Source: Candidatus Krumholzibacteriia bacterium (GTDB lineage: Bacteria; Krumholzibacteriota; Krumholzibacteriia; LZORAL124-64-63). From it: DNA of 64,000 nt. The notes under the pieces were generated by a model, which saw only the letters and a program-made list of their open reading frames with translations, was not told the DNA's origin and did no database searches. Shown in pieces: positions 59,798 to 63,393 of this stretch. Positions within the stretch are counted from its first letter, which is position 1, and each line of letters starts with the position of its first letter. The position numbers and the translations under genes are program-made. Where the stretch lies: positions 5,901-69,900 of the forward strand of contig JAWKQQ010000024.1 in assembly GCA_041390065.1 (NCBI GenBank). The letters run 5' to 3'.

Positions 59798-60172
59798 CTA
59801 CTCGAAGATGTTCTTCAGTTCCGTCCAGGTGTGCTCCTGCGCGCCCACGCCTTCGTGGCAGTATCCGCACTGGTAGCCGTCGGGGCTCACCAGCGGGCCA
59901 TGCAGCACGAACACGTCGGTCGTGTCGTGGCACTGGACGCACGCCGTCGGCTCGACCGGGTTGGCTCCTATGGCGCCGACGTGGCAGAGCGCGCAAGAGA
60001 ACTGGCTCGAGTGAACGGTATGCTGGGCGCCACCGATCGTGAACGTGGTGTGGCACTGGCTGCAGCTCGTGTCGGTGCCGGTGACGAACGGGAAGGCGCC
60101 GGCCGGCACGCTGACCAGCGCGGCGATGGCGATGACCAGAGCGGTCGTCAGCAACATTCTCTTGGTCTTCAT
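59798..60172 (-). CDS. Small periplasmic tetraheme cytochrome c (c3-like)
   Basis: The start was chosen at MKTKRMLLTTALVIAIAALVSVPAGA (signal peptide, AAGGAG upstream). Four CXXCH motifs (CSQCH, CALCH, CVQCH, CGYCH) occur in about 100 mature residues, along with extra His residues suitable as distal ligands. Confidence 0.8.
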   Translation of the reverse strand: MKTKRMLLTTALVIAIAALVSVPAGAFPFVTGTDTSCSQCHTTFTIGGAQHTVHSSQFSCALCHVGAIGANPVEPTACVQCHDTTDVFVLHGPLVSPDGYQCGYCHEGVGAQEHTWTELKNIFE

Positions 60173-60264
60173 CCTGGTCTCCTTAAGGTTCGGGCTCGGC
60201 AGGTCACGAGCTGAAGTGCACCGGAGCAGCCTGCGCCTCACCCCAGGATTCTAGCTCCCCGGTG

Positions 60265-60321
60265 TGTCATATGTCAATGTCGTTTCATGAGATATGACAT
60301 CGAATGCCGATATCGGGATTC
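60265..60321. promoter_or_regulatory. Cluster of palindromes in the AT-rich divergent promoter region of the cytochrome genes
   Basis: TGTCATAT (60265-60272) and ATATGACA (60292-60299) form an inverted repeat, and a third TGTCA half-site lies at 60272-60276. A near-perfect 20-bp palindrome GAATGCCGATATCGGGATTC lies at 60302-60321. Confidence 0.3.
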
Positions 60322-60390
60322 AAGATTGATGGCGTCATATTCGGGGTCGTGGCCACCGGGAAGCCGGAGGCGAAAAACCGCGTCCCCCGA

Positions 60391-60408
60391 CCTTGACCAT
60401 GGTCAAGG
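60391..60408. promoter_or_regulatory. Perfect 18-bp palindrome containing a Crp/Fnr-type box (TTGAC-N4-GTCAA)
   Basis: ccTTGACCATGGTCAAgg is centred about 98 nt upstream of the octaheme gene ATG. It matches the TTGAT-N4-ATCAA / TTGA-N6-TCAA class of Fnr/FixK/Dnr operators. Confidence 0.5.
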
Positions 60409-60497
60409 AACTCCGGAACCGGCCTTGAACAACCCTTGGCCGGGGTCGTTAACTTGGGAACAGCCCGTTCTTCATGACCCCATCCGGGAGTTGATCC

Positions 60498-61832
60498 ATG
60501 ACGCGTGCGATCCTGATGCTCTGCGTGCTGACCCTCGCCGCGGGCAGCGCCCTGGCCGTGGCCACCGACAGCCCCGCCGGCAAGTGCATGACCTGCCACA
60601 AGGAGAAGTCGCCCGGCCTCTACAAGCAATGGTTCGCGAGCAAGCACGGCTCGGCGGGCATCACCTGCATCGACTGCCACGGCGCCGAGAAGGGCGACGC
60701 GGACGGGTTCATGCACGAGGGCGCGCTGATCGCGACGCTGGTCACGCCGAAGGACTGCGGCGCGTGCCACGCCAAGGAGGCGGACCAGGTGCAGCACAGC
60801 TACCACGCCCACGCCGGCGAGATCCTCGACTCCAACGACGCCTACCTCGCCCACGCGGCGGGCGGCTTCCCCGTGGCCGTCGACGGGTGCGAGAGCTGCC
60901 ACGGCTGCAAGGTGGTCATCGATTCCGACAGCCCCAACAAGCTGTCGCGCCTGAGCTGGCCGAACAGCGGCATCGGCCGCCTGAACCCCGACGGCTCCAA
61001 GGGCAGCTGCACCGCCTGCCACACGCGCCACGCGTTCGACGTCGCGCAGGCGCGCAAGCCCGAGGCCTGCTCCAAGTGCCACCTCGGACCGGACCATCCG
61101 CAGAAGGAGGTCTACGAGGAGAGCAAGCACGGCAACGCGTACTTCACAAACGTCGAGCACATGAACCTCGACAGCGACAGCTGGGTCGTGGGCGTCGACT
61201 ACTTCGCGGCCCCCACGTGCGCCACCTGCCACATGTCCGCCACGCGCAACCAGGCGGTCACCCACGAGGTCGGCGAGCGGATCAGCTGGACCCTGAGGCC
61301 GCCCGTGTCGACGACCAAGGAGAACTGGCAGGCCAAGCGCCAGAACATGCAGGACGTCTGCCGCAACTGCCACGGCCAGGGGTTCGTCGACGGCCACTAC
61401 GCCCAGTACGACGGCCTCGTCAATCTCTACAACGAGAAGTTCGCCAAGCCCGCGGGCCAGTTGTTCAAGATCGCCCGCGACAAGAAGCTCGGCGACGGCG
61501 TGGCCAGCTTCGCCAACGAGTACGAGTGGACCTACTGGGAGATCTGGCATCACGAGGGACGCCGCGCCCGCCACGGCGCCGCCATGATGGGCCCGGACTA
61601 CACCTGGTGGCACGGCATCTACGAGGTCGCGCAGCACTTCTACTTCAAGTTCATCCCCGAGCTGCGCGAGTTCCACGACCCCGACCTCGACCGGGCGATC
61701 GACGCGGTCCTGGCCGACGAGTTCCACCAGTGGCTCGGCCGGCCCACGGCCGACATCAAGGCCGACATCAAGTCGGGCAAGCTGCAGGCCCGGTACGCCG
61801 AGATGTTCAAGGGCCCCATGGTCTCCCAGTAG
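60498..61832 (+). CDS. Octaheme cytochrome c of the hydroxylamine oxidoreductase (HAO/HDH) family, short (epsilon-Hao-like) form
   Basis: The protein has a signal peptide and eight CXXCH motifs (CMTCH, CIDCH, CGACH, CESCH, CTACH, CSKCH, CATCH, CRNCH). The conserved C-terminal block is [28 protein letters not shown]. Confidence 0.75.
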   Translation: [444 protein letters not shown]

Positions 61833-61850
61833 ACCGGAAGAGGAGAGACC

Positions 61851-63338
61851 ATGCAGAGGTCCTTCCGGGCCTTCCTGAGGGGCCTGTCCACCACGCGGAC
61901 AGGCGCCCTCGGGGTGGCCCTCACCACGAGCTCGTTCCTGCTGCTCGTCTTCCTGCTGCTGTTGCAGGAGTCCGGCGTCCTGGGGAACAGCTACTCGGGC
62001 CTGCTCACGTTCCTGGCCCTGCCGGCGCTGTTCATCCTCGGTCTGGCGCTGATTCCCATCGGCTGGCACCGGCTCCAGCGGCGGACCGGGCTGAGCACCG
62101 CCGAGCTGCTCCGCGAACGGTTCCCCGACGAGCTGGTGAAGGCCAATCCGCTCGGATCGGGCCTGGCCTTCACCGTGGCCGGCTTGACGGTCGTCAACCT
62201 GCTCTTCCTCGGATTCGGCGGTGCGGCCATCCTGCACCACATGGATTCGCCGCAGTTCTGCGGCACCACCTGCCACCAGGTGATGGGGCCGGAGTGGGCG
62301 ACCTACCAGTCGAGCCCCCACGCCCACGTCGCCTGCGTGGAATGCCACGTCGGCGAGGGGGCGGAGGCTCTCGTGGACGCCAAGCTGAACGGCCTGCGGC
62401 AGATGTGGCTGGTCACCACCGGCGGCTACAACCGTCCCATCCCCACGCCGGTCCACACGCTGCGGCCGGCGCGGGAGACCTGCGAGAAGTGCCACTGGCC
62501 CGACAAGTTCTACGGCGACCGCATCAAGACGTTCGCCCGGTTCGCGCCCGATTCGGCCTCGACGCCGGCCTTCAGCACGCTGGCGCTCAAGGTGGGCGCC
62601 GGCGGCGAGACCGGCGCGATCCACTGGCACGTCTCGTCCGACGCGGCGGTCACCTATCAGGCGGCGGACGCCACGCGTCGGCAGATGCTCTGGGTCGAGG
62701 TCCGCCGCGGCGACCAGGTGACCCGCTGGCGCAACCCCCGGGTCGCGGCGACGGCCCCCGGGACCTTGCCCGAACCGCGGACCATGGACTGCATCGACTG
62801 CCACAACCGGGCGACCCATGTCTACCGCATGCCCGCCGACGTGGTCGACGGCCTGGTCGCCGCCGGCGACATCGATCGGTCCGTGCCCTGGGCCAAGGCG
62901 GCGGCGCTCGAGGCGCTGCGGACCACGGTGCCGCCGGGCGAGTCGCCCGAGGTGGCCATGGCCGCGGCGCTGCGCGGCTACTACCGCCGCAAGGCGCCCG
63001 CCGTGCTGGACCGCGACCCGCGGGCGCTGGACGCCATGGCGGTCGTGCTGGCGAGGGCGTACGCCCGCAACGTCCACCCCGGGATGAAGGTGGGCTGGGG
63101 CGCCTACCCCAGCCACATCGGCCATCGCCGCGACGACGCCGGTTGCAGCCGTTGCCACGGCGCCGGCCTGGTGAACGACCGCGGCGAGGGGATCGACGAC
63201 AGCTGCACGCTGTGCCATTCGTTGCTGGCCTTCGAGAGCGCGACCCCGTTCCGCTTCCTCGAGCCGCTGCAGCCGGCCCAGCCCGATTCGGCCATGCAGG
63301 TCTACCTGCGCGACGAATTCACGAGCAGCGTGCCCTGA
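61851..63338 (+). CDS. Inner-membrane multiheme cytochrome c, NapC/NirT-related, ImcH-like architecture; putative quinol dehydrogenase
   Basis: The RBS is GGAAGAGGAG, and the start lies 18 nt after the octaheme stop. Three N-terminal TM helices are predicted. The NapC-like region is FCGTTCHQVMGPEW..Y..SPHAHVACVECH. Five CXXCH motifs are present (CVECH, CEKCH, CIDCH, CSRCH, CTLCH) plus one CX3CH (CGTTCH). Confidence 0.7.
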   Translation: MQRSFRAFLRGLSTTRTGALGVALTTSSFLLLVFLLLLQESGVLGNSYSGLLTFLALPALFILGLALIPIGWHRLQRRTGLSTAELLRERFPDELVKANPLGSGLAFTVAGLTVVNLLFLGFGGAAILHHMDSPQFCGTTCHQVMGPEWATYQSSPHAHVACVECHVGEGAEALVDAKLNGLRQMWLVTTGGYNRPIPTPVHTLRPARETCEKCHWPDKFYGDRIKTFARFAPDSASTPAFSTLALKVGAGGETGAIHWHVSSDAAVTYQAADATRRQMLWVEVRRGDQVTRWRNPRVAATAPGTLPEPRTMDCIDCHNRATHVYRMPADVVDGLVAAGDIDRSVPWAKAAALEALRTTVPPGESPEVAMAAALRGYYRRKAPAVLDRDPRALDAMAVVLARAYARNVHPGMKVGWGAYPSHIGHRRDDAGCSRCHGAGLVNDRGEGIDDSCTLCHSLLAFESATPFRFLEPLQPAQPDSAMQVYLRDEFTSSVP

Positions 63339-63365
63339 GCGGGCCAGGTCACGGTCGGCCCGACC

Positions 63366-63393
63366 GGACCGCCGCCCCGCCGGGCGGCGGTCC
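63366..63393 (+). terminator. Hairpin after the cytochrome operon
   Basis: ggaccgccgccc-cgcc-gggcggcggtcc forms a 12-bp perfect stem, 28 nt after the stop, followed by gcgcTTgTg. Confidence 0.5.

What the first reader, a model, noticed from the sequence alone, without database searches (positions are those of the whole stretch)
59798..63393. Self-contained multiheme island: HAO-family octaheme, ImcH/NapC-like membrane cytochrome and a divergent tetraheme
Seen in sequence:
- Three adjacent genes carry 4, 8 and 5 canonical CXXCH motifs, plus one CX3CH.
- Gene 60498-61832 has a signal peptide, eight evenly distributed heme motifs and the block [28 protein letters not shown].

Established knowledge: eight hemes plus that helical block are hallmarks of the hydroxylamine oxidoreductase / hydrazine dehydrogenase octaheme family. 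At 444 aa the protein falls in the size class of the short, reductive epsilon-Hao enzymes rather than the nitrifier HAO.

Inference:
- The usual partners are missing. These would be a NapC/NrfH-type tetraheme HaoB, or cytochromes c554/cM552.
- Instead there is a 495-aa protein with three N-terminal TM helices and a NapC/NirT-like first heme pair. This architecture is reminiscent of the Geobacter inner-membrane cytochrome ImcH.
- A c3-like tetraheme is transcribed divergently from a shared regulatory region.
- No amo, hzs, nrf, nir or nor genes are in the window.

The locus looks like an undescribed quinol-to-periplasm redox module whose substrate is open. Candidates include nitrite, hydroxylamine, hydrazine, NO or something else.
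Basis: partly seen in the sequence, partly recalled or inferred. Interest (0 to 1): 0.72.

Follow-up and report, generated by a model that had tools for sequence, protein, structure and literature searches.

The report
HAO-like octaheme with ImcH-type partner
Two adjacent genes encode a periplasmic eight-heme enzyme of the hydroxylamine-oxidoreductase family and a membrane six-heme quinol dehydrogenase of the Geobacter ImcH type; this pair is widespread in sediment bacteria, probably reduces nitrite or a related nitrogen oxide without oxygen, and has never been tested.

Summary
Three adjacent genes carry 4, 8 and 5(+CX3CH) heme motifs and are the only multiheme ORFs in the window, which comes from a Ca. 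Krumholzibacteriia MAG.

- **Octaheme (60498-61832).** It is a true HAO-family member, closest to the Ignicoccus octaheme IhOCC. All eight hemes and the Asp-His pair align with Nitrosomonas HAO. A conserved cross-linking tyrosine is unlikely.
- **Membrane cytochrome (61851-63338).** This 495-aa protein fits the published ImcH family: three TM helices, a first CX3CH motif, and GSU3259-like heme spacing. It has six hemes.
- **Conserved unit.** The two genes are 18 nt apart and adjacent in 75 of 76 informative genomes across about ten phyla. That pair is the real unit.
- **Tetraheme (59798-60172).** It is a near-orphan absent from all related loci, so it is a lineage-specific insertion and not part of the module.
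- **Regulation.** A perfect FNR/CRP-type box lies upstream here and in 20% of related loci, against 0.8% in control windows.
- **Best reading.** An anaerobically induced, NrfHA-like menaquinol:nitrite/hydroxylamine/NO reductase. The architecture is well supported; the substrate is inferred.
- **Novelty.** It is a new variant of a known kind. Both families are described separately, and I found no description of the operon.

The parts
60498..61832 (+). Octaheme cytochrome c of the HAO family, IhOCC-like subfamily; 444 aa with a signal peptide of about 20 residues. Proposed periplasmic catalytic subunit. Public record MEZ4389245.1, 'multiheme c-type cytochrome'.
   Evidence: It has 8 CXXCH motifs. 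PF13447 scores 82.1 bits against a cut-off of 21.9. PDB profile hits are 4QO5 at 2.4e-59 and HAO at 1.8e-25. hhalign to NeHAO gives 99.7% probability, with all 8 hemes and D199-H200 aligned.
61851..63338 (+). ImcH-type inner-membrane six-heme cytochrome c; 495 aa. It has 3 N-terminal TM helices, a first motif CX3CH and five CXXCH. Proposed menaquinol dehydrogenase and electron donor to the octaheme. Public record MEZ4389246.1, 'NapC/NirT family cytochrome c'.
   Evidence: Motifs are and TM helices. NrfH/NapC homology covers residues 106-216. All six motifs are invariant in 25 homologues. The layout matches GSU3259 and published ImcH homologues. K178, Q184 and Y193 sit at a +5 offset to ImcH K173, Q179 and Y188.
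61836..61845 (+). Shine-Dalgarno-like GGAAGAGGAG in the 18-nt spacer between the two genes, implying co-transcription and coupled translation.
   Evidence: Read directly from the sequence. The same tight spacing occurs in 75 related loci.
60393..60406 (.). Perfect FNR/CRP-family box TTGACCATGGTCAA, with extended palindrome 60391-60408. Its centre lies about 99 bp upstream of the octaheme start codon. Proposed anaerobic or N-oxide-responsive activator site.
   Evidence: Read from the sequence. A perfect TTGAY-N4-RTCAA box lies upstream of the octaheme gene in 16 of 80 loci. The rate is 0.1% in shuffles and 0.8% in 3471 random windows of the same loci. The consensus scan mis-scored it as a terminator-like hairpin.
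59798..60172 (-). Small secreted tetraheme cytochrome c; 124 aa from the ATG at 60172. It lies next to the module but is not conserved with it. Public record MEZ4389244.1, 'hypothetical protein'.
   Evidence: It has 4 CXXCH motifs. Cytochrome_C7 scores 27.2 bits against a cut-off of 24.8. There are only 3 other homologues, and the two whose contigs were read (P0243, P0244) are not near hao-like genes. It is absent from 80 related loci.
60248..60277 (-). Sigma-70-like promoter TTGACA-18-TAGAAT for the tetraheme gene.
   Evidence: It matches 11 of 12 consensus positions. It is the only such site in 59600-64000, against an expectation of 0.1.

Best explanation
The real unit is a two-gene operon, 60498-63338. 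It encodes a menaquinol-to-periplasm reductase system built like NrfHA, but from different parts.

Proposed mechanism:
1. The six-heme, three-helix ImcH-type cytochrome oxidises menaquinol at its first heme. That heme has the CX3CH motif, sits at the membrane surface, and is probably His/Gln-ligated.
2. Electrons pass along its heme chain to the soluble HAO-family octaheme, which is probably a trimer.
3. The five-coordinate heme 4 of the octaheme, flanked by Asp199-His200, reduces a small nitrogen oxide. The most likely substrates are nitrite and/or hydroxylamine (to ammonium) or NO.
4. Expression is switched on by an FNR/CRP-family regulator under anoxia or N-oxide stress.

Shown here:
- family membership of both proteins;
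- their tight and near-universal adjacency;
- periplasmic and membrane topology;
- the enriched FNR-type box.

Inferred:
- the direction of electron flow;
- the physical interaction between the two proteins;
- the substrate.

The adjacent tetraheme is a lineage-specific addition. At most it is an accessory electron carrier in this organism.
For: Octaheme:
- It has eight hemes in HAO order, with the NeHAO Asp267-His268 equivalent (GPDHP) conserved. The pair is present in 46 and 42 of 66 divergent relatives respectively.
- Six distal His residues are conserved in 58-66 of 66 relatives.
- The closest solved relative is IhOCC, listed as an octaheme nitrite reductase in PMC9250108.
- Epsilon-Hao enzymes that lack the Tyr reduce nitrite and NH2OH in vitro (PMC8042395).
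- The Tyr368 column varies among relatives as Y37 W7 F6 D3 H3 V2 I1. It is W in IhOCC and V in the cross-link-free Kustc0458.

Partner:
- It matches the ImcH family definition and the GSU3259 heme spacing.
- It shows NrfH homology over TM3 plus the first hemes.
- ImcH is an experimentally shown menaquinol-interacting, electroneutral quinol oxidase (10.1101/2023.05.03.539133).

Coupling:
- The spacer is 18 nt and carries an RBS.
- The genes are adjacent in 75 of 76 informative loci from Krumholzibacteriota, Zixibacteria, Calditrichota, Ignavibacteria, Acidobacteriota, Marinimicrobia, Gemmatimonadota and Myxococcota.

Regulation:
- The FNR-type box is enriched 25- to 160-fold.
- Crp/Fnr genes, ferredoxin genes and NapH-like polyferredoxin genes are neighbours in 9-11 loci.
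Against: - No activity data exist for this subfamily.
- In Krumholzibacteria the operon sits among housekeeping genes, with no nap, nar, hcp or other N-cycle gene nearby. Context therefore gives no substrate clue there.
- IhOCC's host does not respire nitrite, and IhOCC was also proposed to act as an electron relay (PMC4429474).
- Speth et al. argue that non-clade-III HAOs may act on sulfur compounds (PMC9213671).
- ImcH's only proven role is extracellular electron transfer.
- The window's protein does carry a Tyr (Y368) in the loop that bears the cross-linking Tyr467 in NeHAO. I could not align that loop reliably.
- The AF2 model of the heme core is poor, at pLDDT 57, so no active-site geometry is available.
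Confidence: 0.5

Rival explanations
1. The architecture is the same, but the substrate is not a nitrogen oxide. Candidates are sulfite, polysulfide, tetrathionate or another small oxyanion, reduced at heme 4.
For: - Relatives in the wider fold family, MccA and OTR, reduce sulfur compounds.
- Speth et al. propose sulfur reduction for clade I HAOs in N-oxide-poor sediments (PMC9213671).
- Many host lineages live in sulfidic sediments (titles).
- No N-cycle genes lie nearby in Krumholzibacteria.
- An anion-type Alginate_exp porin is adjacent in 20 loci. This fits any anionic substrate.
Against: - The distal Asp-His pair is the one used by N-transforming HAOs.
- The nearest characterised relatives, IhOCC, epsilon-Hao and Kustc0458, all turn over nitrite, NH2OH or NO.
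- No sulfur-metabolism genes are conserved nearby.
Confidence: 0.2
2. The pair is an electron-transfer relay for extracellular respiration. The ImcH-type quinol oxidase would hand electrons to the octaheme, which acts as a periplasmic shuttle or capacitor toward Fe(III), Mn(IV) or a partner cell. No catalysis at heme 4 would be involved.
For: - ImcH is required for reducing high-potential extracellular acceptors in Geobacter (PMC4251993).
- Published ImcH homologues occur in the Fe(III) reducers Geothrix, Melioribacter and Anaeromyxobacter.
- IhOCC was proposed as an electron relay between membranes.
- An outer-membrane beta-barrel gene is adjacent in 20 loci.
Against: - The catalytic-pocket residues D199-H200 and the eight-heme HAO core, including the catalytic heme-4 motif, are conserved. 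A pure shuttle would not need them.
- No outer-membrane or extracellular multiheme cytochrome is conserved next to the pair, and none occurs in the window.
- The porin is of the AlgE type, not a porin-cytochrome barrel.
- In Geobacter imcH is monocistronic.
Confidence: 0.12
3. The pair is an oxidative module, a HURM in the forward direction. Tyr368 would cross-link to heme 4 of a neighbouring subunit to give a P460 cofactor. The enzyme would oxidise hydroxylamine or hydrazine and pass electrons through the ImcH-type protein into the quinone pool.
For: - An invariant Tyr ([11 protein letters not shown]) lies in the loop between C-terminal helices 2 and 3. NeHAO carries Tyr467 in the same loop (GGWTYTEGWG; sequence verified).
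- One plausible gapped alignment puts Y368 on Tyr467.
- The Asp-His pair is as in oxidative HAOs.
Against: - The column is W, F, I, V, D or H in relatives 48-54% identical.
- It is W in IhOCC, described as lacking the P460 heme (PMC9250108). It is V in Kustc0458, which has no cross-link.
- The loop is 3 residues shorter than in NeHAO.
- No amo, hzs or other hydroxylamine or hydrazine source is found in the window.
- The FNR-type box suggests anaerobic induction.
- ImcH is thought to act only as a quinol oxidase.
Confidence: 0.05
4. All three genes, including the divergent tetraheme, would form one functional island, with the tetraheme as the dedicated periplasmic redox partner.
For: - The genes are physically adjacent and share a 325-bp divergent intergenic region.
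- The tetraheme is secreted and of the c3/c7/STC type.
- HAO-family enzymes elsewhere use small cytochrome partners such as c554 and Kustc0457.
Against: - The tetraheme is absent from all 80 related loci.
- It has only three homologues anywhere, and the two whose contigs were read lie beside unrelated genes.
- Relatives with 80-83% identical octahemes lack it.
- It has its own strong promoter.
Confidence: 0.1

Closest known systems
IhOCC (Igni_0955), octaheme cytochrome c of Ignicoccus hospitalis, PDB 4QO5
   Same: - It is the best solved relative, at E 3e-45 with a single sequence and 2.4e-59 with a profile.
- Both have eight hemes.
- Both carry the ~30-residue insertion between hemes 4 and 5 with the PN-G-GR-NPDGS motif.
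- The C-terminal helical block aligns.
- The only significant Foldseek hits are 4QO5, HAO and HDH.
   Different: - IhOCC is 521 aa and archaeal.
- It has Asp-Val where this protein has Asp-His.
- It has Trp where this protein has Tyr368.
- Foldseek gives 23% identity over 524 columns.
- Whether IhOCC has an ImcH-type neighbour was not determined.
Epsilon-Hao / HaoA-HaoB 'reverse HURM' of Campylobacterota (Nautilia, Campylobacter)
   Same: Both are short HAO-family enzymes thought to lack the Tyr cross-link, reduce nitrite and NH2OH in vitro, and are thought to draw electrons from quinol via a membrane c-type cytochrome.
   Different: - The partner there is a tetraheme NapC/NrfH/cM552-type protein with one TM helix. 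Here it is a 495-aa, three-helix, six-heme ImcH-type protein.
- Epsilon-Hao genes often sit beside nap genes. This operon does not.
- I could not obtain epsilon-Hao sequences to compare.
ImcH (GSU3259) of Geobacter sulfurreducens and published 'ImcH homologues'
   Same: - Both have three N-terminal TM helices and a first heme motif CX3CH right after TM3.
- Both show NapC/NirT homology over TM3 plus the first hemes.
- First-Cys positions are 137/162/211/314/432/452 here and 132/156/205/311/428/448 in GSU3259.
- Conserved K, Q and Y residues sit at a +5 offset to ImcH K173, Q179 and Y188.
- Six-motif homologues are listed for Anaeromyxobacter, Acidobacteria, Gemmatimonas sp. SM23_52, Geothrix and Zixibacteria RBG-1.
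   Different: - This protein has six hemes, not seven; the C-terminal motif is missing.
- It is co-operonic with an HAO-family octaheme, whereas Geobacter imcH is monocistronic and serves extracellular electron transfer.
- No direct sequence alignment with GSU3259 could be made with the tools.
NrfHA, cytochrome c nitrite reductase complex (PDB 2J7A)
   Same: - The logic is the same: a membrane NapC/NrfH-type quinol dehydrogenase is encoded next to a periplasmic multiheme reductase.
- NrfH aligns to residues 106-216 of the partner at E 3e-6. TIGR03153 scores 1e-13.
- The heme-1 motif is followed by a conserved Met.
   Different: - The catalytic subunit is an octaheme with a CXXCH His-ligated active heme, not a pentaheme with CXXCK.
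- The partner scores 51.5 bits against the NrfH cut-off of 134.2. It has two extra TM helices, a beta domain, a helical domain and two extra hemes.
Kustc0458/0457 (HAOr) of Kuenenia stuttgartiensis, PDB 6H5L
   Same: Both are cross-link-free HAO-family members with the identical GPDHP active-site motif and the same loop length at the Tyr position. Kustc0458 reduces nitrite to NO.
   Different: - The match is distant, at E 3e-18.
- Kustc0458 lacks the heme 4-5 insertion.
- Its partner is a soluble diheme cytochrome and it is located in the anammoxosome.

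Membership tests
HAO family (octaheme HAO/HDH/IhOCC, Pfam PF13447) | Eight CXXCH motifs in the HAO order that align one-to-one with a reference HAO | tested here: met
   There are eight motifs. hhalign of the family profile against NeHAO gives 99.7% probability, with hemes 1-8 aligned in register.
HAO family (octaheme HAO/HDH/IhOCC, Pfam PF13447) | Curated profile match above threshold, and significant similarity to solved members only | tested here: met
   PF13447 scores 82.1 bits against a cut-off of 21.9. PDB hits are 4QO5 at 2.4e-59 and HAO, HOX, HAOr and HDH at 1e-16 to 1e-25. 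Foldseek gives only these hits, although the model is poor.
HAO family (octaheme HAO/HDH/IhOCC, Pfam PF13447) | Distal His ligands for the bis-His hemes and the Asp-His pair at the catalytic heme 4 | tested here: met
   H50, H73, H103, H178, H211 and H256 are conserved in 58-66 of 66 relatives. D199-H200 align with NeHAO 'VDH'. The coordination state itself is inferred.
HAO family (octaheme HAO/HDH/IhOCC, Pfam PF13447) | Homotrimer built on three long C-terminal helices | not testable with these tools
   Long helices at 294-328, 341-362 and 369-390 are predicted with pLDDT 80-97. The oligomeric state could not be modelled.
Oxidative HAO/HDH (P460 enzymes) | Tyrosine that cross-links to heme 4 of the neighbouring subunit (NeHAO Tyr467) | tested here: inconclusive
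   Y368 lies in the topologically equivalent loop, but HMM and hhalign do not align that region. The column varies as Y37 W7 F6 D3 H3 V2 I1 in 66 relatives, and is W in IhOCC and V in Kustc0458. This leans strongly towards no cross-link.
Epsilon-Hao / HaoAB (reverse HURM) | Tetraheme NapC/NrfH/cM552-type partner with one TM helix | tested here: not met
   The partner is 495 aa with 3 TM helices and 6 hemes. It falls below the NrfH and NapC equivalog cut-offs.
Epsilon-Hao / HaoAB (reverse HURM) | Phylogenetic placement within the Campylobacterota epsilon-Hao lineage | not tested
ImcH family (for 61851-63338) | Three N-terminal TM helices followed by an atypical CX3CH first heme motif (Levar 2014; Zhong & Shi 2018) | tested here: met
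   TM helices lie at 20-40, 50-70 and 104-124. The motif FCGT[TA]CH at 137-142 is invariant in 25 homologues.
ImcH family (for 61851-63338) | Heme-motif layout and length as in GSU3259 (495-519 aa; first Cys at 132/156/205/311/428/448/486) | tested here: met
   This protein is 495 aa with first Cys at 137/162/211/314/432/452 (compared). The seventh motif is absent, as in the published six-motif homologues from Anaeromyxobacter, Zixibacteria RBG-1 and others.
ImcH family (for 61851-63338) | Conserved heme-1 Gln ligand and the Lys/Tyr of the quinol site (ImcH Q179, K173, Y188) | tested here: inconclusive
   Q184 and K178 are invariant and Y193 is at least 90% conserved, at a constant +5 offset. 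The match rests on numbering only, because no ImcH sequence was available to align.
ImcH family (for 61851-63338) | Role in extracellular electron transfer to high-potential acceptors | not testable with these tools
   The context argues for a dedicated periplasmic partner instead.
NrfH/NapC/CymA tetraheme quinol dehydrogenases | About 150-200 aa, one TM helix, four CXXCH, profile score above the equivalog cut-off | tested here: not met
   TIGR03153 scores 51.5 bits against 134.2, and only residues 111-215 match. The match to PDB 2J7A_C, at E 3e-6, covers residues 106-216 only.
Small tetraheme cytochromes c3/c7/STC (for 59798-60172) | Four CXXCH in about 100 residues and a profile match | tested here: inconclusive
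   Cytochrome_C7 scores 27.2 bits against a cut-off of 24.8, over residues 57-106 only. The STC match in PDB is at E 0.16.

The most novel reading that the evidence does not exclude
The HAO-like/ImcH-like operon would be a widespread, unrecognised respiratory route from quinol to nitrite, hydroxylamine or NO in Krumholzibacteriota, Zixibacteria, Calditrichota, Ignavibacteria, Acidobacteriota and others. If so, nrfA-based surveys miss a large share of sediment ammonification or NO turnover. Many 'ImcH homologues' now counted as markers of extracellular metal respiration would in fact be dedicated electron donors to an octaheme enzyme. It would also name the first physiological partner for any ImcH-family protein.
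Probability: 0.35. Interest if true: 0.75.

Novelty: new variant of a known kind. Interest (0 to 1): 0.55.

Why it matters
- **Function of environmental hao genes.** Genes annotated 'hao' are among the most abundant nitrogen-cycle hits in anoxic mats and sediments (PMC8940962), yet their function outside nitrifiers, anammox bacteria and Campylobacterota is unknown (PMC9213671). Showing that one large subfamily is hard-wired to an ImcH-type quinol dehydrogenase gives a concrete, testable respiratory module.
- **ImcH as a marker.** ImcH homology has been read as evidence of extracellular electron transfer (PMC4251993, PMC6295460). The conserved operon suggests a different job for the six-heme branch, and perhaps an ancestral one.
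- **Feasibility.** Both proteins belong to families that have already been expressed heterologously, so the substrate question can be settled experimentally.

Tried and rejected
- **AF2 model of the octaheme.** Built from a 29-sequence alignment, it has mean pLDDT 57 and the heme core is below 50. It is unusable for active-site or cross-link geometry. Foldseek TM-scores are therefore low, although the only significant hits are HAO-family.
- **AF2 model of the partner.** It has pLDDT 69, and Foldseek found no PDB match with E below 1.
- **Aligning the C-terminal loop to NeHAO.** phmmer, hmmsearch and hhalign all failed. I used column variability in relatives instead.
- **Contig look-up for the window's own partner protein.** It is not on record.
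- **ImcH paper PMC10601379.** It is not held, so I used the preprint instead.
- **Tetraheme as a conserved partner.** Rejected.
- **CHGCK at residue 134 as an NrfA-like Lys-ligated heme.** Rejected, because Cys137 is not conserved.
- **Hairpin at 60382-60411 as a terminator.** Rejected in favour of an FNR-type operator.
- **Literature searches.** Ten searches found no description of the hao-like/imcH-like operon. Only open-access text was searched, so absence is not proof.

Full report
**1. What is there**

The window is about 72% G+C. Its three proteins are identical to consecutive NCBI records MEZ4389244-46 from a Candidatus Krumholzibacteriia MAG contig of 72,735 bp. The public names are 'hypothetical protein', 'multiheme c-type cytochrome' and 'NapC/NirT family cytochrome c'.

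- No other ORF in the 64 kb has two or more CXXCH motifs.
- Twenty of the largest other ORFs are housekeeping, regulatory or transport genes: purine synthesis, RNase G, peptidases, a hybrid histidine kinase and transporters.
- The three genes immediately upstream are a histidine kinase, a gene whose homologue in relatives is a sodium:solute symporter (PF00474), and an M66-like peptidase.
- The tetraheme gene most likely starts at the ATG at 60172, giving 124 aa.

**2. The octaheme (60498-61832)**

Family membership is solid.
- PF13447 scores 82 bits against a cut-off of 21.9.
- The best solved relative is the Ignicoccus octaheme IhOCC (4QO5), at E 3e-45 with a single sequence and 2.4e-59 with a profile. 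Nitrosomonas HAO, Kuenenia HOX, HAOr and HDH follow at 1e-16 to 1e-25.
- hhalign of a 29-sequence profile against NeHAO aligns all eight heme motifs in register at 99.7% probability. It places D199-H200 (GPDHP) on the HAO Asp-His pair.
- Six non-motif histidines expected as distal ligands are conserved in 58-66 of 66 divergent relatives.
- A ~30-residue insertion between hemes 4 and 5 ([14 protein letters not shown]) is shared with IhOCC, is conserved across the wider subfamily, and is absent from NeHAO.
- NeHAO Tyr334 aligns with Arg267, which is invariant in close relatives but variable further out.

The family is large.
- More than 7,900 hits were found in the 90%-clustered collection.
- 1,863 clusters at 50% identity match at E ≤ 1e-3, and 248 at E ≤ 1e-30.

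**3. The cross-link tyrosine**

- I recalled the NeHAO C-terminal sequence and verified it as 100% identical to PDB 4FAS residues 398-503. Tyr467 lies in GGWTYTEGWG, in the loop between C-terminal helices 2 and 3.
- The window's protein has an invariant [11 protein letters not shown] in the equivalent loop. Neither HMM nor hhalign aligns this region, so positional equivalence of Y368 is unresolved.
- In 66 full-length cluster representatives the column reads Y37, W7, F6, D3, H3, V2, I1. This includes relatives 48-54% identical.
- IhOCC has Trp at this position and Kustc0458, which has no cross-link, has Val.
- A residue that must form two covalent bonds through its phenol would not vary this way. 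I therefore consider a cross-link unlikely, though not excluded for this protein.

**4. The partner (61851-63338)**

- It has three TM helices, and the positive-inside rule places the heme domain in the periplasm.
- Residues 106-216 match NrfH/NapC: TIGR03153 at 1e-13 and PDB 2J7A_C at 3e-6. The scores are far below equivalog cut-offs.
- All six heme motifs are invariant in 25 homologues, including FCGT[TA]CH..M.
- The published definition of the ImcH family is three TM helices, an atypical CX3CH next to the membrane domain, 5-9 CX2CH, and 495-519 aa in Geobacter (PMC6295460; PMC4251993). This protein meets it.
- Supplementary Table S3 of PMC6295460 gives GSU3259 motif positions 132/156/205/311/428/448/486 and TM helices at 13-35, 45-67 and 100-122. 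Here the motifs are at 137/162/211/314/432/452 and the TM helices at 20-40, 50-70 and 104-124.
- The same table lists six-motif homologues in Anaeromyxobacter, Acidobacteria, Gemmatimonas sp. SM23_52, Geothrix and Zixibacteria RBG-1.
- ImcH residues H137, K173, Q179 and Y188 correspond, at a constant +5 offset, to H142, K178 (invariant), Q184 (invariant) and Y193 (at least 90% conserved).
- Between hemes 3 and 4 the AF2 model shows a beta domain, followed by a confident helical bundle. Foldseek finds no solved relative.
- More than 5,000 homologues exist, named at most 'NapC/NirT family'.

**5. The unit of conservation**

- In 80 loci from species-representative genomes, the partner gene follows the octaheme gene within about 15-45 nt in 75. 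Four of the five exceptions are contig ends, and one (L045) truly lacks it.
- Hosts span Krumholzibacteriota, Zixibacteria, Calditrichota, Ignavibacteria, Acidobacteriota, Marinimicrobia, Gemmatimonadota, Eisenbacteria and Myxococcota.
- In the window the spacer is 18 nt and carries GGAAGAGGAG.
- No other neighbour is general:
  - an Alginate_exp outer-membrane barrel in 20 loci;
  - a NapH-like polyferredoxin in 11;
  - a Crp/Fnr regulator in 9;
  - a ferredoxin in 9, mostly in Zixibacteria.
- Krumholzibacterial relatives show the operon among housekeeping genes.

**6. The tetraheme is not part of the unit**

- It has no homologue in any of the 80 loci.
- It has only three homologues among 5.8 billion proteins. 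The two whose contigs were read lie beside unrelated genes.
- In relatives whose octaheme is 82% identical, the symporter gene directly precedes the operon.
- The tetraheme and the M66-like peptidase are therefore a local insertion.
- The tetraheme has its own near-consensus promoter.

**7. Regulation**

- A perfect palindrome, CCTTGACCATGGTCAAGG, lies about 99 bp upstream of the start codon.
- A perfect TTGAY-N4-RTCAA box occurs upstream of the octaheme gene in 16 of 80 loci from several phyla. The rate is 0.1% in shuffles and 0.8% in 3,471 random windows of the same loci.
- This points to control by an FNR/CRP-family regulator, that is, by anoxia or N-oxide stress.

**8. Interpretation**

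- The architecture is an NrfHA-like quinol-to-periplasm module. Its catalytic subunit is an IhOCC-like HAO and its quinol dehydrogenase is ImcH-type.
- By analogy with IhOCC, epsilon-Hao and Kustc0458, the likeliest substrates are nitrite, hydroxylamine or NO.
- Three rivals remain open and are scored separately:
  - a sulfur-compound substrate (PMC9213671);
  - an extracellular-electron-transfer relay, given ImcH's known role;
  - an oxidative P460 enzyme.

**9. Novelty**

- HAO-family proteins of unknown function across 65 phyla have been noted. ImcH homologues across 12 phyla have been noted separately.
- That paper remarks only that imcH genes are 'often associated with genes encoding c-Cyts'.
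- I found no description of the conserved hao-like/imcH-like operon in ten full-text searches. The library covers open-access text only.
- I rate it a new variant of a known kind, of moderate interest.

Noticed in passing
window 60265-60272 and 60292-60299: Inverted repeat TGTCATAT / ATATGACA with a 19-bp spacer. Its left arm abuts and overlaps the -35 hexamer of the tetraheme gene's promoter, so it may be an operator for that gene.
   Followed up: no
window 57527-60241: The M66-like secreted metallopeptidase (719 aa, HELGHNLGLYH motif) and the orphan tetraheme sit between the symporter gene and the octaheme operon. In the closest relatives (L086, L087) the symporter gene abuts the operon, so this looks like a 2.7-kb lineage-specific insertion.
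   Followed up: partly
L041:499-1767, L085:8526-9794 and 18 other loci: An Alginate_exp (AlgE-type) outer-membrane beta-barrel gene lies immediately upstream of the octaheme gene in 13 loci, and lies downstream of the octaheme-partner pair in the other 7. It may be a substrate channel.
   Followed up: partly
L026:3351-4907, L044:4785-5930 and related Zixibacteria loci: A Crp/Fnr regulator gene, a 263-aa 4Fe-4S ferredoxin gene and a NapH-like membrane polyferredoxin gene recur upstream of the operon in 9-11 loci. This resembles nitrosative-stress or N-oxide regulons.
   Followed up: partly
window 60888-60911 (residues 131-138 of the octaheme): An extra Cys137 creates CESCHGCK, that is, a CXXCK overlapping the heme-4 motif. 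Cys137 is not conserved in relatives, where the position is A, S or T, so the motif is probably incidental.
   Followed up: yes
L045:5855-7186: This is the one complete locus in which the octaheme gene is not followed by the ImcH-type gene. It keeps the upstream NapH-like and porin genes.
   Followed up: partly
L084:1-5215: In a Krumholzibacteria relative, an Rnf complex gene cluster with a cytochrome c3-family gene lies about 5 kb upstream of the operon.
   Followed up: no
window 28071-31247 (+) and 45120-47660 (-): These long ORFs have unusual codon-position composition (GC1 0.89-0.94, GC3 0.80-0.82). They are either low-complexity proteins or spurious frames.
   Followed up: no
window 63339-64000: The DJ-1/PfpI gene that follows the operon in relatives (L084, L086) is not found here. 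The stretch is very G+C-rich and contains only Pro/Arg-rich ORFs.
   Followed up: partly
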